NCBI GenBank assembly: GCA_002402995.1 | Contig: DHGX01000001.1 | Location: 85,625 to 149,624, forward strand | Source: Patescibacteria group bacterium UBA4787 | GTDB taxonomy: Bacteria; Patescibacteriota; Patescibacteriia; UBA2591; UBA4787 | Reading direction: 5' to 3' | DNA length: 64,000 nucleotides | Shown: positions 6,370 through 50,574 of the stretch, one piece after another | How the letters are laid out: each line of letters starts with the position of its first letter | Numbering within the stretch: position 1 is the first letter of the stretch | The notes under the pieces: generated by a model | Seen by the model: only the letters and a program-made list of their open reading frames with translations | Database searches by the model: none | Told to the model about the DNA's origin: nothing | Program-made: the position numbers and the translations under genes

Positions 6370-8094
6370 ATGCCCGAAACCTTGAAACAGCGTCTGCAGA
6401 AGTGGATTCGCGACGAGGGTAGTTCAATCGATAAACTGGTCGAGTTTATTCAGCAGGAAATCAACGCGGTTATCCAGGAAAAGATCAAGCAGGTCGGAGC
6501 TTTAGTCGAGAAACTAAAGAATAGCGAAAATGCGCGACTCGATTTATTTGAGAAGTTCCAGGAACTAGTGAAGCGCTACAAGAATCTGAAAGAGCCGCCT
6601 TCAAGCTATGGCCGTGTTTTAGACAAACAGAGCGAACACGATCGTCTATTAAATCAAGACACTAAAACCGTAACCATTATCACTGCCGAAGGACGGATTA
6701 TGAAGGTTTTAGCCGAATCCGATGAGCTGTATAACAGGTTAAAATTCGGCGACAGCGTAGTAATAAACGCTAACGGCAACATTACGGCCTGCGGCTCGTT
6801 CCTCGGTAATGGTAGAACTGCGACCATCGAAATTGTCCTTGATGCGCGCCGGGCCCTGATCAATACGGGTACGGATCACAAAGAGGAGGTTTATTTGGTC
6901 CCTGGTTTCGCCAGTTTGAAATCTGGTGACGTGGTGGTTTACGATCCGTATTCGCACTTCGTTCTGGAGAAGATTCCGAAGGACGCCAATTTGAGCGAAC
7001 TGGAGCTGGAAAAGGTTCCGAACATTTCTTTGGACGACATCGGCGGTTTGCCGGAACAGAAAAGCACTATTGCTTTTAATATCTTGTCGCCGTTGGTTTA
7101 TCCCGAGATTTTCCAGAAACAGAAGCTCGAAATGTCCAAGGGCGCGATTTTGATCGGCCCTCCGGGCTGCGGCAAGACCATGATGGCCAAAGCGATCGCT
7201 CACGAACTGACGATGCATATGCGGGAAAAGCTCAAGAACCCAACGGCTATGGGCTGCTTCCTTTATGTGCGCGGTCCGGAACTTTCCGCCTGGTTGGTCG
7301 GTATGACCGAGTACAAGCTGCGCGAATTGTTCAAGAAAGCGGTGGAGAAAGCCAAGGAAACTGGTATTCCAACCGTCATTTACATTGACGAGGTGGAATC
7401 TTTTTTGAGGACGCGTGGAACAGGGATCTCTTCTGATGTGAAGGACGATTACGTGACCCAATTTAACTCTTTGGTTGACGGCCTTGACGAGACCGGCGGT
7501 CTGGTGTTTGTGCTGGCAGCCTCTAATCGTCCGGACATGATCGACCCGGCTGTGATGCGCGAAGGCCGACTTGACCTGAAGGTGATGGTCAGCCGTCCGA
7601 CACGCACAGAGCATGCCGAGGACATCCTGCGCAAGTATTTGACTTCGGATCTTTATTTCGACAAGTGTCACGAGAATGACGATAAGACGGTCTTGGTCAA
7701 CGAGTGGATCAAGAAAATCGCCAACTTCATTTTCGCGGACACGGAAGAGACGGAGTTCATGCGAGTGGACTATGTTGACGGCACAAACGAGGTTCTGTAT
7801 TTCCGGCATTTCGTTTCCGGCGCATTACTGAAAGCAATCGTCGATGAGGCGAAGCGCAAAGCTATCCGGCGGGAAATGGAAAAGCGCGGTGACTGTGGCT
7901 TAACGATAGACGACTTCTTGTCGGCTACAACGGAAAAGTTCTGCCAGAATAAACATCTGATTGACAAAGATGCTCTGCGGCAGGAATTCATTCTGCGGCC
8001 GGGCAAGACCGTTGAGAAGGTCATCAGCCTCGTGGAAACCAAGGAGGTGGAGAAGGAGCGCGGTGGTCTGAATGTTGACAGTGATGCTGTGTAA
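6370..8094 (+). CDS. arc: Proteasome-associated AAA+ ATPase (ARC/Mpa-type)
   Basis: N-terminal coiled coil, a middle OB-like region, and a AAA module with Walker A GPPGCGKT, Walker B IYIDEVE and a second region of homology. It lies adjacent to pup, dop and prcBA genes. The C-terminus ends ...DSDAV and has no GQYL/HbYX motif. Confidence 0.8.
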   Translation: MPETLKQRLQKWIRDEGSSIDKLVEFIQQEINAVIQEKIKQVGALVEKLKNSENARLDLFEKFQELVKRYKNLKEPPSSYGRVLDKQSEHDRLLNQDTKTVTIITAEGRIMKVLAESDELYNRLKFGDSVVINANGNITACGSFLGNGRTATIEIVLDARRALINTGTDHKEEVYLVPGFASLKSGDVVVYDPYSHFVLEKIPKDANLSELELEKVPNISLDDIGGLPEQKSTIAFNILSPLVYPEIFQKQKLEMSKGAILIGPPGCGKTMMAKAIAHELTMHMREKLKNPTAMGCFLYVRGPELSAWLVGMTEYKLRELFKKAVEKAKETGIPTVIYIDEVESFLRTRGTGISSDVKDDYVTQFNSLVDGLDETGGLVFVLAASNRPDMIDPAVMREGRLDLKVMVSRPTRTEHAEDILRKYLTSDLYFDKCHENDDKTVLVNEWIKKIANFIFADTEETEFMRVDYVDGTNEVLYFRHFVSGALLKAIVDEAKRKAIRREMEKRGDCGLTIDDFLSATTEKFCQNKHLIDKDALRQEFILRPGKTVEKVISLVETKEVEKERGGLNVDSDAV

Positions 8095-8216: not shown

Positions 8217-8246
8217 TTGACAAATTGGGTTTTTTACAACTATAAT
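8217..8246 (+). promoter_or_regulatory. Promoter (TTGACA, 18 nt spacer, TATAAT) upstream of the dop-like gene
   Basis: gTTGACAaattgggttttttacaacTATAAT; leader motif CGTTCTTTAAA at 8269-8279; strong SD AAAGGGGG before the ATG at 8298. Confidence 0.6.
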
Positions 8247-8297: not shown

Positions 8298-9869
8298 ATG
8301 AGAATCCCAAAAGTTTTTGGCATAGAAACCGAATGGTCTGTTCGTGTTCGAACGCGCAATAGCGTCAGGTTAGCTAACGCCAAAGAATTCGGCGTATTAA
8401 TAAAATTTATACGCGAATTTTTTACTTTGACCAACACCAGACAAGATTCCCAATGGGAGGCTTGTTCGGTTGATGCTGACCGCGAGTTAGAGCAAGAAAT
8501 AGATCTGCGGCATATCGAGAGTGTTGGTTATCTACCGAACGGCGCTCGTTTATATGTCGACTGGCCGCATTTGGAATATTCAACGCCCGAATGTCAGACG
8601 ATTCGTGATTTAATCGCCGCTGACCAAGCTGGCAATTGGCTGCTTAATATGGCCGCCAAAAAAGCCAGTCAACTCTTGAAAAGAGAGATTATAATTATCA
8701 AAGATAATTCCGATCGCAAAGGCGTTTCTTATGCCAGCCACGAGAATTATTCTTTGCAGCCCAGAACATTTAAGGCCATGATCGACCGACAGAACAGCGA
8801 AGCTCGCGATTTGATTTTGCCGTTTTTGGTAACGCGTCAAATTTTGGCCGGAGCCGGCAAAGTTGGTTCCGAAGCTAATAATTTGAGATCTGCAGATTAC
8901 GGCGAAACAAATTTTCAGATTTCGCAACGCGCAGATTTTATCAATGAAATTATCGGTATCGCCACTACGTCGCCGCGCAATCTGATCAACAGGCGCGATG
9001 AACCACATGCTGATTCTGATCTCTGCCGGCGATTGCATGTTATTATTGGTGATGCCAATTTCTGCGATTGGTCTTATTTTTTGCGCGTTGGAACCTACGC
9101 TCTGGTTTTGCGCATGCTGGAAGATTGCTTTATCGGCAATTCGCCAGTTTGTGTCGACAACCACTGGCTCGAAGCGCTTTATCAGACCTCGCGAGATTTG
9201 ACATGCAAGAAGAAGTTGCAGATTGGCACGGCTAGTCAATCACAGATGAATCCGATCGAGATTCAGCGTTGGTATCTTGGCTTAGTCAAGGAATATCTTG
9301 CCGAGTTTAAAGGCAGCGCCGAAGATCATGAGGTTTGTGAAAAATGGGAATATGTTTTAAACGCTCTGGACAACGACCCGAACCAATTGTTCGGCGTCTT
9401 GGACTGGGTAACAAAGAAATGTATTCTTGATCAATATCTTCAACACCAAGGCTTGCTTTGGCAGGATTCTCGGCTCCGTGTAATCGACATAGCTTACCAC
9501 AATATTAGCGATGAGGCTGGTCTTTATTATCAATTTTTAAAAAAAGGGAAAATCCAGAAATTGATTAATAACGAGTTGTTAATGGATAGGGTTCATAATC
9601 CTCCCGTTGACACACGCGCCTATTTGCGCGGAAAGATCGCTCGGCTTTATCCTGAGTTTGTGGAAGATTGGGAGATAATTTCCAATCGCATGCCAAGTAG
9701 ATTTCGTAAGGAACAGTTGGATTCGTTAAGGGTTATCCTAGAAGAAAAACACATTATTACTTTGGGTAACCCGGTTTTAACGCGAGAAGAGAGCGAAGAA
9801 ATTTTCAAACAAATTATTAATCTTTTGAAATCATGGAAAGGAGGAAGCGAAGATGTTAACACGACTTGA
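8298..9869 (+). CDS. dop: Pup ligase/deamidase family protein, Dop-like (candidate Pup deamidase/depupylase)
   Basis: FGIETEW start motif and NGARLYVD.P..EYSTPEC. SHENYS, LPFLVTRQILAGAGKV, INRRDEPHAD, RRLHVIIGDAN and NPPVDTRAYLRG are all PafA/Dop signatures. It has the longest insertion of the three paralogs between GIETE and NGARLY and a C-terminal extension, which is Dop-like. Confidence 0.75.
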   Translation: MRIPKVFGIETEWSVRVRTRNSVRLANAKEFGVLIKFIREFFTLTNTRQDSQWEACSVDADRELEQEIDLRHIESVGYLPNGARLYVDWPHLEYSTPECQTIRDLIAADQAGNWLLNMAAKKASQLLKREIIIIKDNSDRKGVSYASHENYSLQPRTFKAMIDRQNSEARDLILPFLVTRQILAGAGKVGSEANNLRSADYGETNFQISQRADFINEIIGIATTSPRNLINRRDEPHADSDLCRRLHVIIGDANFCDWSYFLRVGTYALVLRMLEDCFIGNSPVCVDNHWLEALYQTSRDLTCKKKLQIGTASQSQMNPIEIQRWYLGLVKEYLAEFKGSAEDHEVCEKWEYVLNALDNDPNQLFGVLDWVTKKCILDQYLQHQGLLWQDSRLRVIDIAYHNISDEAGLYYQFLKKGKIQKLINNELLMDRVHNPPVDTRAYLRGKIARLYPEFVEDWEIISNRMPSRFRKEQLDSLRVILEEKHIITLGNPVLTREESEEIFKQIINLLKSWKGGSEDVNTT

Positions 9870-10602
9870 GTTGACTTGGCGATTAATGGATGAGCTAATC
9901 GCTCAATTCCTGAAATTGCCGAGCGCGATAGGACAGAGCGACTTTAAACTGGAAGAGTATTTACAGCAATCCCATCTTCACGGTACCACCGTCCTCGCTC
10001 TGAAATATCAGGGTGGAGTGCTGTTAGGTGGAGACGGTCGGGCTTCCGGCATGGATTTCCGTATTTTTACGGACAAAACTCCGAAGGTTTATCCGGTTTC
10101 CGAGTCGACTGCTTACGGTCTTTCTGGGGACGCTCATCTGGGTATTGAGGTGGGAAAGATCTTGGCTTTGACGCTTAAGAATTACGAGAAGAAAGAGTTT
10201 CGAGCCATGAGTTTTGTCGCTCAAACCAAGATGTTGGCTAAAATGATCGAGCGTTTACTGCCAATGGCTATGCAGGGCCGTATCGTGATGCCGATTTTCG
10301 TGTCATGTCAGGAAATCTGCACGATTTATCCGAATGGCATGGTGGTAAGGGGAGATGAAGGTTATGGTGGAATTGGTTCGGGTAGTCCTCACGCCATTCA
10401 TCGCATCAAGGCTCGTTTGGCTGATAACCCCAATCCAGATAAAACCAGGGCGATAGAAATTATACTCGAAGCTTTTGCGGAAGCTCATAAGAGTGATGCC
10501 GCAACCGGCTCTAATTTGCTGATTTATAGTCTGGAAGAGTCGGGAATCGCTATCGTTCGCAACGATGTCGGAAACGGACCGTTTTCGATGAACCTGTTGT
10601 AA
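9853..10602 (+). CDS. prcB: 20S proteasome beta subunit (PrcB) with propeptide
   Basis: The propeptide is followed by the active-site HG/TTVLALKYQGGVLLGGDGR, which matches the mycobacterial TTIVALKYPGGVVMAGDRR. The GIGSGS and AATGS motifs are present. The start overlaps the dop end by 17 nt and is preceded by GGAAAGGAGG. Confidence 0.85.
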   Translation: MLTRLELTWRLMDELIAQFLKLPSAIGQSDFKLEEYLQQSHLHGTTVLALKYQGGVLLGGDGRASGMDFRIFTDKTPKVYPVSESTAYGLSGDAHLGIEVGKILALTLKNYEKKEFRAMSFVAQTKMLAKMIERLLPMAMQGRIVMPIFVSCQEICTIYPNGMVVRGDEGYGGIGSGSPHAIHRIKARLADNPNPDKTRAIEIILEAFAEAHKSDAATGSNLLIYSLEESGIAIVRNDVGNGPFSMNLL

Positions 10603-10617
10603 TCGTGAGGTGAAATA

Positions 10618-11322
10618 ATGGCTGATAAATTGGATCTCATTGCCAACGACAAAGATAATGCCTTGCCGGTTATCGCAGTCAGCACCAAAGACGGCATACT
10701 TCTTGTCGCAATTAATTTTTCCATTAGTCCGGAGGATTCCGATACCTACATCCACAAACTTTCAGAGATCCATGACAATATCGGCATGGGCGCTTGTGGC
10801 AATAGCAGCGAGTATGATCCGCTGCGCAGGCAGTTTATCGACGTCGTTGATAGGCTTGCCTACGAGTTGTCCAAGGACGATATTGTCTTGAAGAGTCTGG
10901 CCAATAGTTTGGCCGGAGAGTTGCGCGATGTATATCGCAATCCCCGTCTGGTTCCTCGTGTGGTCTTCTTCGTCTTGGTGGAATGTCAGGAAGATTCGAA
11001 GCGGGATCGTTTCGTCCGGATCGGTCTCGACGGCAAGTTCAAGATCTTTAATAATTTCACGGTGATCGGCGGCAACGACAAAGAGGTTGGCGCTCTAATG
11101 GATAACCTCAGGTCCGTCGAATTTTTGGAGATGGACTGGCCGACCGCTTTAACCGCGATCAAGGAAGCGATAAAGAAAACCAACATCGCCCGGATCGCTG
11201 GCGCAAAGAAATCGGACAAGACCGTCGAACCGTTCCCATCCCTGGAGCTGGCAATTCTCTGGCGTGGAAGAACTGGCAGAAAATGGCAGCTTTTGCCGCA
11301 TCAAATTAAGGAGGTGAAATAA
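10618..11322 (+). CDS. prcA: 20S proteasome alpha subunit (PrcA)
   Basis: VIAVSTKDGILLVA, KLSEIHDNIGMGACGNSSEYDPLRR and VIGGNDKE align with PrcA segments. It follows prcB. Confidence 0.75.
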   Translation: MADKLDLIANDKDNALPVIAVSTKDGILLVAINFSISPEDSDTYIHKLSEIHDNIGMGACGNSSEYDPLRRQFIDVVDRLAYELSKDDIVLKSLANSLAGELRDVYRNPRLVPRVVFFVLVECQEDSKRDRFVRIGLDGKFKIFNNFTVIGGNDKEVGALMDNLRSVEFLEMDWPTALTAIKEAIKKTNIARIAGAKKSDKTVEPFPSLELAILWRGRTGRKWQLLPHQIKEVK

Positions 11323-11323
11323 A

Positions 11324-11527
11324 ATGCTTAAAAAGCAGTTTCTATTCTTAACCCCAGACGAGCAAGAAAAAAAGGAGACTGAAAAACATCCTCTGGGGCC
11401 CAAGCCCGGCGGACCTGGCTCCGGTAAGAAGGCAGACAAAAATGATGATAACATCGATGACATCCTTGATGACATCATCGAACGGAATAAGCGGGTTAAT
11501 GAAACTGACGAGCGAGAGGGTCAGTAA
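11324..11527 (+). CDS. pup: Prokaryotic ubiquitin-like protein Pup (67 aa, C-terminal -EGQ)
   Basis: Small acidic, disordered protein whose C-terminal half DDNIDDILDDIIERNKRVNETDEREGQ resembles the Pup helix plus the terminal G-Q. Strong SD AAGGAGGTG. Located between prcA and a pafA-like gene. Confidence 0.6.
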   Translation: MLKKQFLFLTPDEQEKKETEKHPLGPKPGGPGSGKKADKNDDNIDDILDDIIERNKRVNETDEREGQ

Positions 11528-11535
11528 TATTTAAT

Positions 11536-11568
11536 CCCCGCACTTTAAAATAGTGCGGGGATTTTTTT
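11536..11568 (+). terminator. Rho-independent terminator after pup
   Basis: ccccgcactttaaaatagtgcgggg hairpin followed by ATTTTTTTAT. Confidence 0.7.
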
Positions 11569-11673
11569 ATAATCGCAATGAGCGAGGCAGCAGAAATTTT
11601 ATTTTTAGATTGCCGGACAGGTCAGATTATATATTGAAGAGAGGCATAGTTCTCCTCTTCTTCTATTTTAATT

Positions 11674-11708
11674 TGACAAATCATCAAAAAAAGATAAGAT
11701 TTATATAA
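11674..11708 (+). promoter_or_regulatory. Promoter (TTGACAAAT-type) upstream of pafA-like paralog 2
   Basis: tTTGACAaatcatcaaaaaaagaTAAGATttatataag; GTTCCTTAAAA leader variant at about 11725. Confidence 0.45.
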
Positions 11709-11755
11709 GAAAAATAATAATGTTGTTCCTTAAAATTATTCAAGGAGAGAATAAA

Positions 11756-13285
11756 ATGAAGAAGAGAATTATTGGGATAGAGAATGAATATCGGATTCAG
11801 GCTCTGCCCGGATTCGATAAAAGCAGATACAAGGTTTATTTTCGGGGATTGAAAATAAGCTTGAATCAGTTTCTATCCAACGGAGCGAGGTTTTATTTGG
11901 ATTTTCCGAGCGAACTGCCGGAGTATTGCACGCCGGAAGTTACGACCATCCGTGAAGTTCTGGCGCATGAACGCGCCGGAGATTATATTGTCTGGGAGAG
12001 CCTGAAAGACATGATGGAAATTTTTAGGCGGAATACCAGTCAGCCAGGTCTCTTTTACAAATATCTGGCAAGTGGTTGTCATGAGAACTATCTTTTTTAT
12101 CTTGATGAAGCTATCAAGTCAACTGCGAATATCTACCCGCAGATGAGCGGCCACATCTTGGCAAGATTGGTGGCTTTTTTGGGGCCCTTCTTGGTCTCTC
12201 GACAGATTTTTTGCGGCGCTGGTTGGTGGTTAACAAATGAAGATGGGCGAAGTTATTTTAATATTTCGCAGCGCGCCCATTTTATGAAGCGTGATTACGG
12301 CGGAGACACGATGCAGAATAGGGCGATTATCAATTCTCGGAATGAATCATTGTGTTCGTCGAGCAATTATTCTCGTCTTCATCTCATTGTTGGCGACTCC
12401 AATATGAGCGATCTCTCTGGTTTTCTCAAGCTCGGCACCACGTCTATCGTTTTAAGGATGATCGAAGCAGGCTTCTTTGATCCACAAGACATTGTTCTAG
12501 TTGATCCGGTTGCGGCTATCGCTGTCATTTCCGATGATTTGAGCTGTAAGGCGACTGTCCAGGCCGGCGGTTTGCATCGTTCGCTTTCAGCCATTGACAT
12601 CCAAGAGTGGTATCTTAATAAAGCTCGTGAATTTTTTGAATGTCGAGAAGTATCCGAAGAGGAGAAGGAGGTTATAAAATATTGGCAGGAAGTTTTGGAC
12701 AAACTGCGCCGAGACCCCATGCTTCTCAAAGAGGAGATCGACTGGGTGATCAAATATAATTTGATTTGCCGTTATGCTGAAAAACACGGTGTTGATCTCG
12801 ATCATTGTTCGGACGAGGAGAGTGAAGCGCTGAGAGTCATTGACACTCATTATCATTCTCTAAATCCGGAGAGAGGTTTGTACCACAAGCTTCTCGGCGC
12901 TGGGAAGATCGCCAAGCTTATTAGTGATAAAGAGGTGGCTTTGGCAATAAAATCTCCACCGACTGATACGCGAGCCAAAGTCCGTGGTGACTTCATTTCT
13001 TTCATCCTGAAAAATCATGCGGATTTGGTTAGGTATTTCATCGTCAATTGGGACGCTATTCGTTATAATTATCGTGCTAATGGATTTTCTAGGCTGATCC
13101 ACGAATTTCAACCTAATCAAGACGATGAATCGGTGAAAGCCTGTGTTTTCAATCTCGGCGATCCGTTTCTTTCAACAGAAACTTGCAACAACTTCCAAGT
13201 ATTGGTTGAAGAGATTGAGTCTCACCAAGAATTTTTCAAATCTATGATACCAACTCCGTCTCCTGACCATCGCGATTATGAATAG
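11756..13285 (+). CDS. pafA: Pup ligase family protein, PafA-like (paralog 2)
   Basis: IGIENEY, NGARFYLDFP.ELPEYCTPE, GCHENYL, RLHLIVGDSNMSD, LKLGTTSIVLRMIE, EIDWVIKYNL, PPTDTRAKVRG. Start chosen at MKKRII with SD AAGGAGAG. The GIENE-to-NGARFY spacing is short, which is PafA-like. Confidence 0.8.
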   Translation: MKKRIIGIENEYRIQALPGFDKSRYKVYFRGLKISLNQFLSNGARFYLDFPSELPEYCTPEVTTIREVLAHERAGDYIVWESLKDMMEIFRRNTSQPGLFYKYLASGCHENYLFYLDEAIKSTANIYPQMSGHILARLVAFLGPFLVSRQIFCGAGWWLTNEDGRSYFNISQRAHFMKRDYGGDTMQNRAIINSRNESLCSSSNYSRLHLIVGDSNMSDLSGFLKLGTTSIVLRMIEAGFFDPQDIVLVDPVAAIAVISDDLSCKATVQAGGLHRSLSAIDIQEWYLNKAREFFECREVSEEEKEVIKYWQEVLDKLRRDPMLLKEEIDWVIKYNLICRYAEKHGVDLDHCSDEESEALRVIDTHYHSLNPERGLYHKLLGAGKIAKLISDKEVALAIKSPPTDTRAKVRGDFISFILKNHADLVRYFIVNWDAIRYNYRANGFSRLIHEFQPNQDDESVKACVFNLGDPFLSTETCNNFQVLVEEIESHQEFFKSMIPTPSPDHRDYE

Positions 13286-13326
13286 TCCCGTTCTGGCTGA
13301 TTGAAATCCCCATTTTATTTTTATTA

Positions 13327-13356
13327 ACGCTCCTAAATAATTAGGAGCGTTTTAAA
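13327..13356 (+). terminator. Terminator after pafA-like paralog 2
   Basis: gctcctaaataattaggagcg hairpin followed by TTTTAAATTT. Confidence 0.55.
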
Positions 13357-13430: not shown

Positions 13431-14900
13431 ATGCAAAAACGCATTTATGGTTTGGAGACTGAGTATAGGTGGTGGAGTTCCTTGCCGGAGAAAAACCCCG
13501 ATAATCCGAGTCAGGTTTTTTCCGGATATCATTTGAATACTATAGTCAATTACTATCCGGGTAATTATTCTGGCTTTTTGCCAAACGGCGCTAGGTTTTA
13601 TGTGGACATGGTTCGGTTTCCAGAGTTCTCAACTCCGGAATGTGCGAGTGTTAGAGATGCCGTGATTTGGGATAAGGCAGGGGAAAAAATAGTTTTCGAT
13701 TGTTTGGGCGGCGCTGTTGTCATCCGAAAAAGAAATTTAGGCAGCAACGGAAAAGTACAGGGTTGCCACGAGAATTATTTGATCGATCGCCAGGTCTTAT
13801 TGAAAGATCGCGACATCTCTCTCGGTCATGTCCATTTGGTCGAACGAGACTTTAATTATTTGGCCGATCGTCTAATTCCTTTTTTGGTGACGCGCCAGGT
13901 TTTCTGCGGCACCGGCGCCATTATGGAGTTCCCACAAATTCAGATAGGGGAAAATCCTTCAACTCAGTGTTTATATCGCTATGTCATTTCACAGCGAGCT
14001 TTCAGAATCGAGCATTTAATCCACGCCGAGACTACTAATAATCGGCCGATCATTAACATGCGCAATGAGCCTCTGTGCGGTGGCGACGAGAGATATTTCC
14101 GCCTGCATCTGATTCTGGGTGATTCTAATCTTTCAGAGTTTTCGACTTTCTTGAAATTGGGTACTACTGGCATAATCTTGCGGATGATTGAGGCTGATTT
14201 TTTAGACACAACCAGTATTGCTCTGCTTGATCCATTAGCAGCTCTTCGGCAAGTCGCGATAGATCCGACTTGCAAAAAAAGGCTAGACTTGGTTGATCAA
14301 CGTCAGTTTTCAGCTATCGACATTCAACAGTGGTATCTCGACAAAGCCAATAAGTTCTTCCAGCGCAACGAAGCTTCAGAAGAGGAAAAAGAAGTGATTG
14401 AGCGTTGGCAAGAAACGTTGGACAAACTGCGCCGAGACCCCATGCTTCTCAAAGAGGAGATCGACTGGGTGATCAAGCTCAACGCTTTGATAAGATATTG
14501 CGAATCTCGCAATTTATCTTTTGACAGCGAAGAAGCAAGGCGTCTTGACGTGGCTTATCATGATCTTGATCCGGATAATTCTCTCTACTTAAAACTTCTT
14601 AAACGTGGTCGCGTCAAGAGGTTAGTTGCCGAGGAAGAGATCGAGAACGCCATTGTTAATCCGCCCGATACGCGCGCCAAAATTAGAGGTTCTGTTATAC
14701 TGGCAATCAACGATTATATTAATCGTTCGTCTATTGGCCGTGATCGCGGCATCTTAATAAACTGGGATTTGGTTTCTGTGTATGCTTCTACGATTCCTCC
14801 TACCACTACTTCTGATAAGATAATAACACTAAGCGATCCTTTCGCGGTGGAAAATTCGGAAATCCAGGCTCTAGTCAACCAATTAAATGCTACACTTTAA
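13431..14900 (+). CDS. pafA: Pup ligase family protein, PafA-like (paralog 3)
   Basis: YGLETEY, NGARFYVD...FPEFSTPEC, GCHENYL, LIPFLVTRQVFCGTGA, RLHLILGDSNLSE, LKLGTTGIILRMIE, EIDWVIKLNAL and PPDTRAKIRG. Confidence 0.8.
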   Translation: MQKRIYGLETEYRWWSSLPEKNPDNPSQVFSGYHLNTIVNYYPGNYSGFLPNGARFYVDMVRFPEFSTPECASVRDAVIWDKAGEKIVFDCLGGAVVIRKRNLGSNGKVQGCHENYLIDRQVLLKDRDISLGHVHLVERDFNYLADRLIPFLVTRQVFCGTGAIMEFPQIQIGENPSTQCLYRYVISQRAFRIEHLIHAETTNNRPIINMRNEPLCGGDERYFRLHLILGDSNLSEFSTFLKLGTTGIILRMIEADFLDTTSIALLDPLAALRQVAIDPTCKKRLDLVDQRQFSAIDIQQWYLDKANKFFQRNEASEEEKEVIERWQETLDKLRRDPMLLKEEIDWVIKLNALIRYCESRNLSFDSEEARRLDVAYHDLDPDNSLYLKLLKRGRVKRLVAEEEIENAIVNPPDTRAKIRGSVILAINDYINRSSIGRDRGILINWDLVSVYASTIPPTTTSDKIITLSDPFAVENSEIQALVNQLNATL

Positions 14901-16542: not shown

Positions 16543-17769
16543 ATGCCTCAGGAAAAGAAAATAGAAAAATTTTCCAAAGACAATGAAGCTTTAATTAAGC
16601 TAGAAGTTTTTGATCCCGTCGTAGAATTGCAGAATATCAAAAAATTGTCCAAGGATGAACGACTAAAAGTTTTTCAAGAATACAAAGAAAAACTCATCGA
16701 GCAAAAAGAAAATTTAGCCAAAACGCAAGAAGCGCTTACGGCTTTAGTTCGATTCAATCCGGACAGGCCGCTGGAGGAATTGATAGAAAAAGCGCAACAA
16801 TTGGGCGACAAATTCGGTTTTTCTGAAGAACAAATGGAAACGATTAAATCAAATTTAAGACAATATTCTAAAAGACATAGTTTGGTCAAAGAGTTAAGAC
16901 AAAAATTTCCCAAAGACAACGAATTATTCAAGGCTTTATTTGGCCGTGAACCAAAAGGACGAATTGAAGTAATCGCCGGGCCGATAACTTTATATTTCCG
17001 TTGCCATGACATTAATGATTACGCCTATCTTTATATATATGGCTTTCTTAGAAAAGAAGAACCAACCATTGAACAAATAAATTTAGTTCAAAAAACCGGT
17101 GGTGCTAAATTAACTTTTGTTATCGGGATAAAAGATGAAATTAAGCAGCAACTTGCTTCTACAGATTTAATTGGCATTGAAAATGCTTCGATAAGACACG
17201 AATTTACTGATAAACAGAAAGGAATATTAGCTCACGAAGAGCAACACGCCATAAATTCTTTATTGTTCCCGTCAGAATATAATACTTATTATGTTTATTT
17301 GGATCTATTGGAAGCAAAAACCAAAACAGAGAAAGAGCTGGCGCTTAAAAGATATTTTAGGTTTTTGCGGGAAACCTACGACACTAGAGCCAAAAGCGAG
17401 ATTGTTGCTTATTTTAAAGAGGGCCGTCCCGTGGACCACGTATATGATTCATTAATTCGTCCGATTGAGGACGATGGTTTTTATGACTATTTTCCAAAAA
17501 ATCAACAAAAAGAATTAGTAGAACAAATTTTTAAAGGTTCGGTGGAACAAACCCCGGAGCTGAAACAAATGATCAATGATATGGTCCAAGAAATTTTCGC
17601 GAGAGAATATCACCAGACTATTAAAAGTGGTCTTAATGCTTTTGCGTCTTTACGCGATATGGGATATTCTTTGGAACAAACTATCGCTTTGTTCCAACAA
17701 GAGCCATTAACTAAGTGGCCCAAATTAGCTAAACGATTTATGGATCAATATGGTGGACAAAATAAATAA
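16543..17769 (+). CDS. Hypothetical protein with HExxH motif (tandem paralog 1)
   Basis: About 400 aa; AHEEQHAINS motif; paralogous to the next gene (shared FDPV.EL.NIK, NPD.PL.EL and PL.KWPK). Confidence 0.5.
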   Translation: MPQEKKIEKFSKDNEALIKLEVFDPVVELQNIKKLSKDERLKVFQEYKEKLIEQKENLAKTQEALTALVRFNPDRPLEELIEKAQQLGDKFGFSEEQMETIKSNLRQYSKRHSLVKELRQKFPKDNELFKALFGREPKGRIEVIAGPITLYFRCHDINDYAYLYIYGFLRKEEPTIEQINLVQKTGGAKLTFVIGIKDEIKQQLASTDLIGIENASIRHEFTDKQKGILAHEEQHAINSLLFPSEYNTYYVYLDLLEAKTKTEKELALKRYFRFLRETYDTRAKSEIVAYFKEGRPVDHVYDSLIRPIEDDGFYDYFPKNQQKELVEQIFKGSVEQTPELKQMINDMVQEIFAREYHQTIKSGLNAFASLRDMGYSLEQTIALFQQEPLTKWPKLAKRFMDQYGGQNK

Positions 17770-18955
17770 AAATTTCGAGACATCGGGAAAAGAGAAAAAT
17801 GAATCAAAAATCTTTGATCCGGTTTTAGAGTTGGAAAATATTAAACAAATCGAGGATCACGCTGAACGCCATGAGAAAATTAAAGAATACAAAGCAAAAT
17901 TAACGGAGCAAAAAGAGAGAATAGCCACCATGCAAGATTTGTTAATTAATTTTATTCGCCAAAACCCCGATATTCCACTCGACGAATTGTTGCAAAAATT
18001 AGAAAAAATGGGCAAAAATCTTAATTTAGCGGATTGGCAGACTGAGATCGGCAGAAAAATTTTGACTGAATACAATCGCCGTCATAATTTAATCAAAGAA
18101 TTGAAAGGGCAATATCCGGACGAACAAGAATTATTTTATTTTCTATTCGGCTGGAAACCGGAAGGAAAAATTGAATTTGTTGAAGGCCCCATAACCTTAA
18201 GTATTATTTGCCACGGATCTCGTGATTACGATAAGCTTCATTTCACTAACGGCGAATACCAAATAGGAGAAATTGAAATTACGAAGGAAGGATTAAAAGA
18301 AAGCACGAAGTCAGGGGGCTGTCATCTACACGGCTTAAAAGAACCATATAATGACTTAGTAAACATATTGAGGACAGATGTCGATAATTTTGACAACCTT
18401 CTAAATCACGAGGAACGGCATGCTATTTATAGTTTGTTCTCAGAAGTTTTCATAAAAGAAATAAACTGTTTATTCTTTGAGAAAGATTCTTCGCTTGAAG
18501 AAAATTTCGGTATCATAAGGAAATATGTGCGCGAACGCTGTTCTTTAGAAGAGGATGGGGCGGCAGACGAGATATTGGCATTTTTAAATGAGAGCGGGTG
18601 GTTCCCGCCAGAAGAAATTTTTGAATTATTAATTGAACCAGACGGTTTATATAATTTCACTGATTTAAGCAATATAGATCTGGTTAAGGAATGTTATGAT
18701 GAACTTAGAGGGAGTCTTAAATTGCCGCCGTCAGAAGATTTAAAAAGGAAGATTGAGAATATAGTTACAGAAATTTGGGTAAATGATTTTCAGAAACATA
18801 TTCAGGAGGGTATAAGGGCCTTTATGCTTTTAAAAGATTTGAATTTTTCTAACGAAGAAACGATGGCTTTTTTGTCAATCGAACCATTAGCCAAATGGCC
18901 CAAGGCGGTTAATCGTTTAATTGAACAGCGTCAGCTTAAGGGTAAATTAAATTAA
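17750..18955 (+). CDS. Hypothetical protein with HExxH motif (tandem paralog 2)
   Basis: About 400 aa; NHEERHAIYS motif; collinear similarity to 16543..17769. Confidence 0.5.
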   Translation: MVDKINKNFETSGKEKNESKIFDPVLELENIKQIEDHAERHEKIKEYKAKLTEQKERIATMQDLLINFIRQNPDIPLDELLQKLEKMGKNLNLADWQTEIGRKILTEYNRRHNLIKELKGQYPDEQELFYFLFGWKPEGKIEFVEGPITLSIICHGSRDYDKLHFTNGEYQIGEIEITKEGLKESTKSGGCHLHGLKEPYNDLVNILRTDVDNFDNLLNHEERHAIYSLFSEVFIKEINCLFFEKDSSLEENFGIIRKYVRERCSLEEDGAADEILAFLNESGWFPPEEIFELLIEPDGLYNFTDLSNIDLVKECYDELRGSLKLPPSEDLKRKIENIVTEIWVNDFQKHIQEGIRAFMLLKDLNFSNEETMAFLSIEPLAKWPKAVNRLIEQRQLKGKLN

Positions 18956-47541: not shown

Positions 47542-47670
47542 AGTATTGTTAATTTATATAGCCAAGTTCTTTAAAAATTTATTTTTTAGTTCAAACCACT
47601 ACAAAAATTCTTAAATTTTTTGTAGTTGCAAATTTTGAGTTTTGTAAATTTTTAGTATCAAATTTTTGTT

Positions 47671-49193
<1,523 letters not shown>

Positions 49194-50201: not shown

Positions 50202-50273
50202 TGCCGGAGGTCAGAATCGAACTGACAACGCAAGGATTTTCAGTCCTTCGCTCTACCACTGAGCTACTCCGGC
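50202..50273 (-). tRNA. tRNA-Phe (anticodon GAA)
   Basis: The reverse complement GCCGGAGTAGCTCAGTGGTAGAGCGAAGGACTGAAAATCCTTGCGTTGTCAGTTCGATTCTGACCTCCGGCA gives a canonical cloverleaf. Confidence 0.9.
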
Positions 50274-50363
50274 AAATAAATATGTATTTTGTTAATGGGC
50301 ATTTAGTCCACCAGCTGGTGGAGAACCCTAGTCCTCTTCCGCCTGCCCCGTTAAATTTCTGAA

Positions 50364-50434
50364 TGGGCGACCAAGGAATCGAACCCTGTTCTCTTCCGTG
50401 TAAAGGAAATGTTTTACCATTAAACTAGTCGCCC
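50364..50434 (-). tRNA. tRNA-Val (anticodon TAC)
   Basis: The reverse complement GGGCGACTAGTTTAATGGTAAAACATTTCCTTTACACGGAAGAGAACAGGGTTCGATTCCTTGGTCGCCCA. Confidence 0.85.
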
Positions 50435-50501
50435 AAGATTAATTTAACGGGGTGGATAAAGGAAGCTTAATCCCTTTATAATACCCATTATTTTTTTAAA
50501 G

Positions 50502-50574
50502 TGGACCCTAGGGGGCTCGAACCCCTCACCTCTTCCATGCCATGGAAGCGCTCTACCAACTGAGCTAAGGGCCC
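50502..50574 (-). tRNA. tRNA-Ala (anticodon GGC)
   Basis: The reverse complement GGGCCCTTAGCTCAGTTGGTAGAGCGCTTCCATGGCATGGAAGAGGTGAGGGGTTCGAGCCCCCTAGGGTCCA has the G3-T70 pair typical of tRNA-Ala. Confidence 0.85.

What the first reader, a model, noticed from the sequence alone, without database searches (positions are those of the whole stretch)
11324..11527. Pup-like protein ending in -EGQ rather than the canonical -GGQ/-GGE
The 67-aa product has the expected disordered acidic N-terminal half and a C-terminal helix-like segment (NIDDILDDIIERNKRVNETDE) similar to the Mpa-binding region of Pup. A C-terminal Gln implies that deamidation by a Dop enzyme is needed before ligation, which is consistent with a Dop-like paralog in the locus. 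The penultimate residue is Glu instead of Gly, which is unusual.
Basis: partly seen in the sequence, partly recalled or inferred. Interest (0 to 1): 0.7.

Follow-up and report, generated by a model that had tools for sequence, protein, structure and literature searches.

The report
Divergent Pup-like tag in a Patescibacterium
A real, conserved 67-residue gene sits inside a proteasome and Pup-ligase locus of a Patescibacteria (CPR) genome and is very probably that system's protein-degradation tag, but it matches neither known tag family (Pup, UBact) and ends in Glu-Gly-Gln instead of Gly-Gly-Gln.

Summary
The ORF at 11324-11527 (+) is real. It has a strong ribosome-binding site and starts 1 nt after the prcA stop. 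It is the last gene of a dop-like/prcB/prcA operon, closed by a strong terminator. It is under purifying selection (dN/dS 0.06-0.27).

The penultimate residue is Gly (R-E-G-Q), so Glu is antepenultimate. The N-terminal half is Pro/Gly/Lys-rich and net basic, and the acidic, helix-prone part is the C-terminal half.

The curated Pup and UBact HMMs do not detect it, although positive controls hit. A profile-profile comparison with Pup gives 14% probability. An exhaustive profile search of 1.84 billion proteins finds only two 50%-identity clusters. Residual similarity to Pup (DDILDDI against DDLLDEI) beats shuffles at p about 0.001.

Context carries the case:
- The locus has an Mpa-like ATPase, one Dop-type enzyme, a 20S proteasome and two PafA-type paralogs, but no canonical pup.
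- Two or three lineages keep a small ORF at the same place.
- These ORFs end in [DE][DE][KR]-E-G-[QE], with the Q/E alternation typical of Pup.

Best reading: a third sequence type of Pup-like modifier, deamidated by the Dop-type enzyme and ligated through its C-terminal residue. This is a new variant of a known kind, of moderate interest.

The parts
6370..8094 (+). Mpa/ARC-like proteasomal AAA ATPase (574 aa). It has an N-terminal coiled-coil-like region followed by the PPSSYG motif. It lacks the C-terminal GQYL docking motif.
   Evidence: TIGR03689 pup_AAA scores 367 bits, below the 505 cutoff. Best PDB hits are Mtb Mpa 5kwa and 7px9. The sequence ends ...NVDSDAV, whereas canonical loci end GQYL.
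8217..8246 (+). Promoter-like site (TTGACA-18-TATAAT, 12 of 12) ahead of the dop-like/prcB/prcA/modifier operon
   Evidence: This is a consensus match only.
8298..9869 (+). Dop-type deamidase/depupylase homologue (paralog L1, 523 aa)
   Evidence: Pup_ligase Pfam E=2e-117. NCBIfam Dop scores 335 against PafA 315, both below cutoff. A roughly 36-aa insertion sits at the Dop-loop position and carries a conserved W-E. There is no extra residue after the catalytic Asp, and the motif is TRAYLRG. It groups with canonical Dop at 100% bootstrap.
9853..10602 (+). 20S proteasome beta subunit (PrcB) with propeptide and the HG|TT processing and active site
   Evidence: PF00227 and TIGR03690; sequence.
10618..11322 (+). 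20S proteasome alpha subunit (PrcA). Its last codons contain the modifier's Shine-Dalgarno sequence.
   Evidence: PF00227 and TIGR03691; sequence.
11310..11317 (+). Shine-Dalgarno sequence GGAGGTGA, 6 nt upstream of the ATG (9 nt from the GGAGG core)
   Evidence: Read directly from the sequence.
11324..11527 (+). The finding: a 67-aa Pup-like modifier candidate. Residues 1-36 are a Pro/Gly/Lys-rich disordered half. Residues 41-65 are an acidic amphipathic helix-prone segment. The C-terminus is D-E-R-E-G-Q.
11533..11570 (+). Intrinsic terminator (12-bp stem with 7 G-C pairs, then a T-run) that closes the operon just after the modifier gene
11720..13285 (+). PafA-type ligase paralog L2 (521 aa) with its own promoter-like site (11673-11700) and terminator (13326-13351). 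Its C-terminal tail ends DHRDYE.
   Evidence: Pup_ligase Pfam. It has no Dop-loop, a 1-residue insertion after the catalytic Asp, and TRAKVRG. It falls on the PafA side of the tree. Tail sequence.
13431..14900 (+). PafA-type ligase paralog L3 (489 aa)
   Evidence: Pup_ligase Pfam. NCBIfam PafA scores 315 against Dop 311. It has no Dop-loop and carries TRAKIRG. It falls on the PafA side of the tree.

Best explanation
The 67-aa protein is the conjugatable degradation tag of a deep-branching Pup-proteasome system in a Patescibacteria (CPR) bacterium.

Inferred mechanism, by analogy with mycobacterial pupylation:
1. The tag is made with a C-terminal Gln, as the last gene of the dop-like/prcB/prcA operon.
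2. The Dop-type enzyme L1 deamidates Gln67 to Glu.
3. One or both PafA-type paralogs (L2, L3) phosphorylate the gamma-carboxylate and ligate it to lysines of target proteins.
4. The acidic amphipathic segment at about residues 41-65 folds on binding, both in the ligase/Dop groove and on the coiled coil of the Mpa-like ATPase.
5. The disordered Pro/Gly/Lys-rich N-terminal half is threaded first into the ATPase, and the substrate is delivered to the 20S core.
6. L1 also removes the tag.

By sequence the tag is a third type beside Pup ([KR]GG[QE]) and UBact (R[ST]G[EQ]). Its C-terminus is [KR]-E-G-[QE], so only the basic residue at -3, the Gly at -1 and the terminal Q/E are shared.

Shown here: the gene is real and conserved, the locus content, the enzyme types, and the absence of a canonical pup in the window. 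Inferred: conjugation, deamidation, ATPase binding and degradation.
For: A real gene:
- Ribosome-binding site, translational coupling and a terminator.
- dN/dS of 0.06-0.27.

Locus content:
- An Mpa-like ATPase, a Dop-type enzyme, PrcB with HG|TT, PrcA and two PafA-type enzymes.
- All three ligase-family paralogs keep the GhExE motif and the catalytic Asp of NGARxYxD.

No alternative tag in the window:
- dop-like and prcB overlap, so nothing lies at the canonical pup position.
- This ORF is the only plausible G[QE]-ending ORF in 64 kb, and it ranks first of 1360 segments against a Pup HMM.
- All 20 more distant Dop-containing loci carry a canonical pup ending [KR]GG[QE] directly after dop.

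Conservation of position and terminus:
- L004, L005 and L006 orthologues end ...NETDDREGQ.
- L008 and L009 carry a 55-aa ORF ending ...ERDDKEGE, between prcA and a PafA-type gene whose enzymes are the closest relatives of the window's.
- The L040 fragment ends ...KRDEKEGE*, just upstream of another PafA-type gene.
- No other segment among 8075 ends in EG[QE].

Functional signature:
- The Q/E alternation at the last residue is the Pup signature, described as a G[EQ] motif by Iyer et al. 2008 (PMC2588565).

Residual similarity to Pup:
- It falls in the Mpa/PafA-binding region. BLASTP against Mtb Pup gives a pairwise E of 0.001.
- The local Pup HMM scores 9.4 bits, reached by 2 of 2000 shuffles, in a collinear alignment.

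Structure:
- AlphaFold2 predicts a disordered N-terminal half and one helix at 44-65, with a heptad-like hydrophobic spacing.
Against: - No curated Pup or UBact HMM detects it, or its relatives, at the loosest thresholds tried, while positive controls score 61-82 bits.
- hhalign against Pup gives only 13.8% probability.
- No PDB Pup chain is hit.
- Pairwise similarity between the window protein and the L008 protein is itself weak: 5.5 bits, reached by 77 of 2000 shuffles. The family link therefore rests on synteny and the C-terminal motif. The strong E-values for P0123 are circular, because that sequence was in the profile.
- The gene is not at the canonical position between dop and prcB, which is described as rigidly conserved (PMC3511204).
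- A Glu side chain at -2 replaces a Gly that lies near the active-site entrance in the PafA and Dop complexes.
- The ATPase lacks the GQYL docking motif.
- Only 64 kb of the genome was examined, so a canonical pup elsewhere cannot be excluded.
- There is no expression or conjugation evidence.
Confidence: 0.74

Rival explanations
1. The protein is a highly diverged orthologue of UBact, the Pup-like tag of Nitrospirota, Verrucomicrobiota and some candidate phyla. On this reading it is not a separate sequence type. The mechanism is the same as in the best explanation, and only the family assignment differs.
For: - The terminus R-E-G-Q fits the UBact pattern R-x-G-[EQ] except at -2. That pattern is recalled from Lehmann et al. 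2017 and was not readable here.
- The L008 relative aligns collinearly with a UBact proxy sequence. BLASTP gives a pairwise E of 1e-4, and phmmer gives 11.7 bits, reached by 0 of 2000 shuffles.
- The proxy scores 82 bits on both curated UBact models.
- The window protein against the proxy gives 7.3 bits, reached by 20 of 2000 shuffles.
Against: - The UBact models NF033388 and PF20513 give no hit for the window, L005 or L008 proteins at the loosest thresholds tried.
- BLASTP finds no alignment between the window protein and the proxy.
- The UBact comparator is one sequence written from memory, not a database record.
- The window lineage looks slightly more Pup-like than UBact-like.
- From memory, UBact loci keep the tag between dop and prcB.
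Confidence: 0.25
2. The small protein is not conjugated. It is a non-covalent accessory of the proteasome or ATPase, such as an adaptor, gate regulator or assembly factor. On this reading its G-Q end is incidental, and the real tag is encoded elsewhere or the ligase-family enzymes have another substrate.
For: - It is translationally coupled to prcA rather than to dop.
- There is no significant match to Pup or UBact models.
- The ATPase lacks GQYL, so some other docking element may be needed.
- The protein evolves faster than all six enzymes of the locus, at 69% against 81-96% identity, unlike the extremely conserved canonical Pup.
Against: - The invariant part across lineages is exactly the extreme C-terminus [DE][DE][KR]EG[QE], with Q/E alternation. 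That makes chemical sense for gamma-carboxylate ligation and deamidation and none for a docking tail.
- A Dop-type and PafA-type enzyme pair without any tag gene would be unexplained.
- The gene lies directly upstream of the PafA-type gene in all lineages.
Confidence: 0.12
3. It is a spurious ORF in the prcA-pafA intergenic region.
For: The protein has low-complexity composition, no database name and no family hit.
Against: - It has a strong ribosome-binding site, and the terminator is placed after it.
- Differences from the orthologues concentrate at third codon positions, 24-25 of 45-46, with dN/dS of 0.06-0.27.
- The frame, length and terminus are conserved in relatives at 78% nucleotide identity, and in a relative whose enzymes are only about 41-48% identical.
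Confidence: 0.02

Closest known systems
Pup, the prokaryotic ubiquitin-like protein (Pfam PF05639, NCBIfam TIGR03687), e.g. M. tuberculosis Rv2111c
   Same: - Size: 67 aa, against 60-70 aa for Pup.
- A disordered N-terminal half and a helix-prone acidic C-terminal half of about 27 residues with coiled-coil-like spacing.
- A terminal Gly-Gln/Glu preceded by a basic residue at -3.
- It is encoded with the Mpa, Dop, PrcB, PrcA and PafA homologues.
- Q/E alternation between lineages.
- A weak collinear match of DDILDDI to DDLLDEI.
   Different: - It is not detected by the Pup HMMs.
- It has E instead of G at -2, so there is no di-glycine.
- The highly conserved VLEENAEEFVxxYVQ core is absent, and the tail after the DDxLDxI motif is about 5 residues shorter.
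- The N-terminal half is net basic and Pro/Gly-rich.
- The gene lies after prcA, not between dop and prcB.
- It evolves fast, at 69% identity where the neighbouring enzymes are 81-96%.
UBact (Pfam PF20513, NCBIfam NF033388)
   Same: - It is a non-actinobacterial Pup-like tag without the GG motif.
- It shares the basic-x-Gly-[EQ] terminus.
- The L008 relative shows weak collinear similarity to a UBact-like sequence (MPE..P.P.RP... D..F/L.KK... AK.Y..R..GE).
   Different: - It is not detected by the UBact HMMs.
- It has E rather than S/T at -2.
- The C-terminal half is acidic rather than basic.
- The gene position differs.
- Canonical UBact is reported to be highly conserved across phyla (own knowledge), whereas this family is tiny and fast-evolving.
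Second ('L2') pupylation locus of Leptospirillum ferrooxidans, whose Pup 'even lacks the terminal GGE' (Barandun et al. 2012, PMC3511204)
   Same: It is a precedent for a complete, sequence-divergent pupylation and proteasome locus outside Actinobacteria with a non-GGE tag.
   Different: That locus keeps the canonical gene order.

Membership tests
Pup (PF05639 / TIGR03687) | Match to the curated family HMM | tested here: not met
   There is no hit for the window protein (Pfam at E<=10, NCBIfam at E<=1) or for its L005 and L008 relatives at E<=10. Control Pups from L007 and L012 score 61-76 bits. hhalign against a 5-sequence Pup alignment gives 13.8% probability. A local 20-sequence Pup HMM run with filters off gives 9.4 bits, reached by 2 of 2000 shuffles.
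Pup (PF05639 / TIGR03687) | Small protein of 50-90 aa with a C-terminal G[EQ] signature (Iyer et al. 2008) | tested here: met
   It is 67 aa and ends G-Q. Relatives end G-Q or G-E.
Pup (PF05639 / TIGR03687) | Di-glycine before the terminal Q/E (GGQ or GGE) | tested here: not met
   The terminus is E-G-Q. All 20 canonical Pups collected here end [KR]GG[QE].
Pup (PF05639 / TIGR03687) | Gene located between dop and prcB (order mpa, dop, pup, prcB, prcA, pafA) | tested here: not met
   The order here is mpa-like, dop-like, prcB, prcA, tag, pafA-like x2. The same order is found in L005 and L008. Canonical loci L007, L010, L012, L013 and L016-L033 have pup directly after dop.
Pup (PF05639 / TIGR03687) | Intrinsically disordered, with a helix-forming C-terminal half that binds the Mpa coiled coil and the PafA/Dop groove | tested here: inconclusive
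   The AlphaFold2 model has mean pLDDT 62, a single helix at 44-65 and is otherwise unstructured. The hydrophobic spacing is heptad-like. Binding itself was not testable.
Pup (PF05639 / TIGR03687) | Covalent attachment through the terminal Glu gamma-carboxylate to substrate lysines | not testable with these tools
   This needs biochemistry or proteomics.
UBact (PF20513 / NF033388) | Match to the curated family HMM | tested here: not met
   There is no hit for the window protein (Pfam at E<=10, NCBIfam at E<=1) or for the L005 and L008 proteins at E<=10. A UBact-like control sequence scores 82 bits on both models.
UBact (PF20513 / NF033388) | C-terminal R-[ST]-G-[EQ] (recalled from Lehmann et al. 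2017; the paper was not readable here) | tested here: not met
   The terminus is R-E-G-Q in the window and K-E-G-E in L008 and L040. The basic residue, Gly and Q/E agree, but position -2 does not.
Dop (TIGR03688), for paralog L1 at 8298-9869 | Dop-loop insertion before strand beta2, present in all Dop and absent in all PafA (Cui et al. 2021, PMC8599861) | tested here: met
   A roughly 36-aa insertion sits at that position in L1 and in L008_A, with a conserved Trp followed by an acidic residue (QWEAC / IWEFC). It is absent from L2, L3 and L008_B. The loop sequence is otherwise not conserved with canonical Dop.
Dop (TIGR03688), for paralog L1 at 8298-9869 | Falls in the Dop clade and reaches the equivalog score | tested here: inconclusive
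   The NJ bipartition {L1-type + canonical Dop} against {L2/L3-type + canonical PafA} has 100% bootstrap. However, the TIGR03688 score is 335, below the 492 cutoff.
PafA (TIGR03686), for paralogs L2 and L3 | No Dop-loop, an extra residue after the catalytic Asp, and PafA-clade placement (positions from Hecht et al. 2020, PMC7947786) | tested here: met
   Alignment, table of positions, tree. Caveats:
- The alpha-loop residues match neither the PafA nor the Dop consensus.
- NTRDEPHA is changed to NSRNESLC in L2 and NMRNEPLC in L3.
- The scores of 277 and 315 are below the 551 cutoff.
- All three paralogs score higher on the A. cellulolyticus Dop chain than on the divergent C. glutamicum PafA chain.

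The most novel reading that the evidence does not exclude
Patescibacteria of this lineage run a third, previously undescribed class of Pup-like tagging.
- The tag has an E-G-[QE] terminus and is invisible to the Pup and UBact models.
- Its gene has moved to the prcA-pafA junction.
- The ligase has multiplied to two to three PafA-type paralogs.
- The ATPase has lost the GQYL docking tail.

The paralogous ligases would then act as substrate-specialised 'E3-like' enzymes. That would contrast with the single-ligase rule of all studied pupylation systems.
Probability: 0.3. Interest if true: 0.75.

Novelty: new variant of a known kind. Interest (0 to 1): 0.55.

Why it matters
- It would show that the Pup-type chemistry, gamma-carboxylate ligation of a disordered tag, needs only a [KR]-x-Gly-Gln/Glu end. 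It would not need the di-glycine or the conserved Pup core.
- HMM-based annotation misses such tags, so pupylation-like systems may be under-counted outside Actinobacteria.
- It places a complete tag, ligase, deligase, unfoldase and 20S proteasome set in an ultra-small CPR genome, where regulated proteolysis is largely unexplored.
- It offers natural variants for dissecting tag recognition and ligase specificity. These are Glu at -2, duplicated PafA paralogs and an ATPase without GQYL.
- The variants may also be useful for orthogonal pupylation-based proximity-labelling tools.

Tried and rejected
1. Curated family scans (Pfam and NCBIfam) of the small protein and its relatives found nothing at the loosest thresholds.
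2. phmmer against PDB sequences gave only chance hits to ribosomal protein S4 through the PGPG stretch, and no Pup chain.
3. The word-indexed search of 5.8 billion proteins with the single sequence found only itself. With a 4-sequence alignment it found only the three input types.
4. The exhaustive HMMER profile search of 1.84 billion representatives found only the two clusters already in the profile. The good E-value for P0123 is circular.
5. The genome-contig scan with paralog L2 found only one related genome, a Patescibacteria MAG.
6. The metagenome scan with the Dop-type alignment recovered the two known contigs of the L004/L005 relatives, one short fragment (L038) and 22 Dop-related loci. 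The 20 of these with enough flanking sequence carry a canonical pup.
7. hhalign of the family against Pup gave 13.8% probability, which is not usable as homology evidence.
8. Literature: the UBact paper is not held. Reviews that cite UBact give no motif. No paper links pupylation to Patescibacteria or CPR.
9. Classifying the paralogs by raw score against PDB chains was rejected as misleading. All three score higher on Dop, because the only PafA structure comes from the divergent Corynebacterium clade. Indel signatures and a tree were used instead.
10. L039 and L041 contributed no additional tag sequence.
Full report
**1. What is at the coordinates**

Window 11324-11527 (+) is an ATG-to-TAA ORF of 67 codons. 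It encodes MLKKQFLFLTPDEQEKKETEKHPLGPKPGGPGSGKKADKNDDNIDDILDDIIERNKRVNETDEREGQ.
- A Shine-Dalgarno sequence, GGAGGTGA, lies at 11310-11317 inside the last codons of the upstream gene.
- The ATG starts 1 nt after that gene's stop codon.
- A 12-bp G+C-rich hairpin with a T-run at 11533-11563 is the strongest terminator-like site in the region.
- A perfect-consensus promoter-like site lies at 8217-8246.
- The gene therefore reads as the last cistron of a four-gene operon running 8298-11527.

- The last four residues are R-E-G-Q. The penultimate residue is Gly, as in Pup, and it is the antepenultimate residue that is Glu.
- The N-terminal half (1-36) is Pro/Gly/Lys-rich and net basic, with 8 K/R against 5 D/E.
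- The acidic part is the C-terminal half (37-67), with 12 D/E against 5 K/R.

**2. Is it a real gene?**

Yes. Orthologues of identical length occur in related contigs.
- L004 is from a MAG titled Patescibacteria group bacterium. L005 and L006 also carry the orthologue.
- These orthologues are 69-70% identical in protein and about 78% identical in DNA.
- Differences concentrate at third codon positions.
- Nei-Gojobori dN/dS is 0.22-0.27 against the window and 0.06 between L005 and L004.
- The overlapping minus-strand ORF (11149-11478) is therefore not the coding frame.

**3. The locus**

All genes are on the + strand.
- **Mpa/ARC-like AAA ATPase, 6370-8094.** TIGR03689 scores 367 bits, and the best PDB hits are Mtb Mpa.
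- **Pup_ligase-family paralog L1, 8298-9869.**
- **PrcB, 9853-10602.** It has the HG|TT processing and active site.
- **PrcA, 10618-11322.**
- **The small ORF, 11324-11527.**
- **Pup_ligase paralogs L2 (11720-13285) and L3 (13431-14900).**
- **nusA** follows.

All NCBIfam scores are well below the equivalog cutoffs, so the whole system is divergent.

Alignment with canonical Dop/PafA pairs from fetched loci classifies the three paralogs.
- L1, and the L008 'A' enzyme, carry a roughly 36-aa insertion at the Dop-loop position with a conserved Trp followed by an acidic residue. They have no extra residue after the catalytic Asp, and they carry TRAYLRG.
- L2, L3 and L008 'B' lack the insertion, have the extra residue after the catalytic Asp, and carry TRAK[VI]RG.
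- The discriminating positions come from Hecht et al. 2020 (PMC7947786). The rule that the Dop-loop occurs in all Dop and in no PafA comes from Cui et al. 2021 (PMC8599861).

A neighbour-joining tree of 31 sequences agrees.
- The bipartition {L1-type + canonical Dop} against {L2/L3-type + canonical PafA} has 100% bootstrap.
- The CPR clades are sisters to all the canonical enzymes.

All three paralogs keep the GhExE motif and the catalytic Asp. The locus therefore holds one Dop-type enzyme and two PafA-type enzymes. The relatives L004, L005 and L006 have three PafA-type enzymes.

**4. Is the small protein a Pup by sequence?**

Not detectably.
- Pfam Pup (PF05639), Pfam UBact (PF20513), NCBIfam Pup (TIGR03687) and NCBIfam UBact (NF033388) give no hit for the window protein at E up to 10 (Pfam) or 1 (NCBIfam). 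They give none for the L005 and L008 relatives at E up to 10.
- In the same control scans, canonical Pups and a UBact-like control score 61-82 bits.
- phmmer against PDB sequences finds no Pup chain.
- hhalign of the family alignment against a Pup alignment gives 13.8% probability over 7 columns.
- An exhaustive HMMER profile search of 1.84 billion representative proteins returns only the two clusters that were already in the profile. The word-indexed searches return nothing else either.
- The family is therefore tiny, and it is not connected to Pup or UBact at database scale.

A residual signal does exist.
- BLASTP against M. tuberculosis Pup aligns ...DDNIDDILDDIIERN with ...DDLLDEIDDVLEEN, at a pairwise E of 0.001.
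- A 20-sequence Pup HMM built here, run with filters off, scores the window protein at 9.4 bits. Only 2 of 2000 composition-preserving shuffles reach that score. For L005 and L004 the counts are 8 and 7 of 2000.
- That alignment is collinear.
- Against all 1360 stop-to-stop segments of the window, this ORF ranks first (E=0.12).
- The same HMM does not distinguish a UBact-like sequence from its shuffles. Failure to match Pup models therefore does not argue against a Pup-like function.

**5. Context and conservation carry the case**

- **No canonical pup.** L1 and prcB overlap, so nothing lies at the canonical pup position. Only 5 of the 1360 segments end in G[QE], and the other four are 25-31-aa junk.
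- **Contrast with ordinary loci.** Canonical pup follows dop directly in the loci found through paralog L2's homologues (L007, L010-L013). The same holds in the 20 Dop-containing loci from the metagenome scan that had enough flanking sequence. All 20 distinct Pup sequences collected here end [KR]GG[QE].
- **Conserved position.** The closest relatives of the window's enzymes outside its own clade are in L008 and L009. There the order is again Dop-type, prcB, prcA, small ORF, PafA-type.
- **The L008 small ORF.** It is 55 aa: MPEKKQSPRPIRPTKKPKEEEEKKFPIDEDEFFKKVEESIDKAKEYMERDDKEGE.
- **A probable third lineage.** The contig L040 is cut inside a reading frame that ends ...KRDEKEGE*, just upstream of another PafA-type gene.
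- **The shared terminus.** It is [DE][DE][KR]-E-G-[QE]. In 8075 segments from 414 kb of window and loci, nothing else ends in EG[QE].
- **The Q/E alternation.** It is exactly what is known for Pup (PupQ and PupE; PMC3511204). It matches the G[EQ] signature that Iyer et al. used to define Pup (PMC2588565).

One caveat applies. Whole-sequence similarity between the window protein and the L008 protein is weak, at 5.5 bits, reached by 77 of 2000 shuffles. The link rests on synteny, on the orthology of the flanking enzymes and on the C-terminal motif.

**6. Shape**

- AlphaFold2 on the 3-sequence alignment gives mean pLDDT 62, no structure in residues 1-43 and a single helix at 44-65.
- Hydrophobic residues at 44, 47, 48, 51, 52 and 58 give an amphipathic, heptad-like face.
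- This corresponds to the last 27 residues of Pup. Those fold into helices on PafA and Dop and form a shared coiled coil with Mpa.
- The ATPase here keeps an N-terminal coiled-coil-like region followed by PPSSYG, as in canonical Mpa.

**7. Relation to UBact**

- From my own knowledge, UBact ends in R-[ST]-G-[EQ]. The paper (Lehmann et al. 2017) could not be read here.
- I wrote a UBact-like sequence from memory. It scores 82 bits on both curated UBact models, so I used it as a proxy.
- The L008 protein aligns with the proxy end to end. BLASTP gives a pairwise E of 1e-4, and phmmer gives 11.7 bits, reached by 0 of 2000 shuffles.
- The window protein is weaker against the proxy, at 20 of 2000 shuffles, and BLASTP finds no alignment.
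- The family may therefore be a fast-evolving offshoot related to both Pup and UBact. Membership of either family is not established.
- The shared minimal pattern across all three is a basic residue at -3, any residue at -2 (G in Pup, S/T in UBact, E here), Gly at -1 and a terminal Q or E.

**8. Most likely mechanism (inferred by analogy, not shown)**

1. The Dop-type L1 deamidates Gln67.
2. The PafA-type L2 and/or L3 ligate the gamma-carboxylate of the resulting Glu to lysines.
3. The Mpa-like ATPase recognises the tag's helix.
4. The ATPase threads the disordered N-terminus and feeds the 20S core.
5. L1 also removes the tag.

Open points:
- How a Glu side chain at -2 is accommodated.
- Whether both PafA-type paralogs are active, since their NTRDEPHA motif is altered.
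- How an ATPase without GQYL docks on the 20S core.

**9. Novelty and verdict**

- The held literature has nothing on pupylation in Patescibacteria or CPR.
- Divergent non-GGE tags outside Actinobacteria are known in principle: UBact, and the second Leptospirillum locus.
- This is therefore a new variant of a known kind, not a new category.
- The distinguishing features are four. The tag is invisible to both family models and has an E-G-[QE] end. The gene sits at the prcA-pafA junction. The PafA paralogs are multiplied. The ATPase lacks GQYL.
- Confidence that this is the conjugated tag of the system is about 0.74.
- Interest is moderate, at 0.55.

Noticed in passing
window 6370-8094 (also L005:4708-6432): The Mpa-like ATPase ends ...GGLNVDSDAV (L005: ...ELPADSEAV). 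It lacks the C-terminal GQYL proteasome-docking motif seen in the canonical loci L007 and L010, although prcB and prcA are adjacent. In Actinobacteria, loss of this motif is reported only for species without proteasome genes (PMC3511204).
   Followed up: partly
window 11720-13285 (C-terminus), L004:3035-4597, L005:10001-11530: The PafA-type paralog L2 has a C-terminal extension ending ...DHRDYE, with a conserved penultimate Tyr. This faintly recalls HbYX/GQYL-type 20S-docking tails. L3 and L008_B lack it.
   Followed up: no
window 11720-13285 and 13431-14900: Both PafA-type paralogs have changed the motif NTRDEPHA, which is otherwise invariant in Dop, PafA, L1 and L008_A. L2 has NSRNESLC and L3 has NMRNEPLC. 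The GhExE motif and the catalytic Asp are kept. Whether both paralogs are active ligases is open.
   Followed up: partly
L005:11730-13226, L004:4743-6236, L006:7089-8600: The closest relatives carry one more PafA-type paralog (L2b, about 50% identical to L2) than the window. The ligase gene is therefore undergoing lineage-specific duplication or loss.
   Followed up: partly
window 11324-11527 versus the rest of the locus: The tag is the fastest-evolving gene of the locus. Between the window and L005 it is 69% identical, against 92% for the ATPase, 93% for L1, 96% for PrcB, 84% for PrcA, 81% for L2 and 87% for L3. Yet the stretch PLGPKPGGPG(S/P)GKK in its disordered half is nearly invariant between the two lineages.
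   Followed up: partly
L039:1-1528: Another PafA-type gene (P0009, 40% identical to L2) lies directly upstream of nusA, as L3 does in the window. The preceding partial ORF ends ...AAKFYRD, not G[QE]. It is probably another ligase paralog rather than a tag.
   Followed up: no
window 47666-49193 and 50202-50574: A complete 16S rRNA gene is followed by three tRNA genes on the opposite strand rather than by a 23S gene, so the rRNA genes are unlinked. Window G+C content is 39%.
   Followed up: no
window 16543-18955: Two overlapping ORFs of 408 and 401 aa lie between nusA and the trigger-factor gene. The counterpart genes in L005 and L006 have no Pfam hit on record, and the pair is conserved there.
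   Followed up: no
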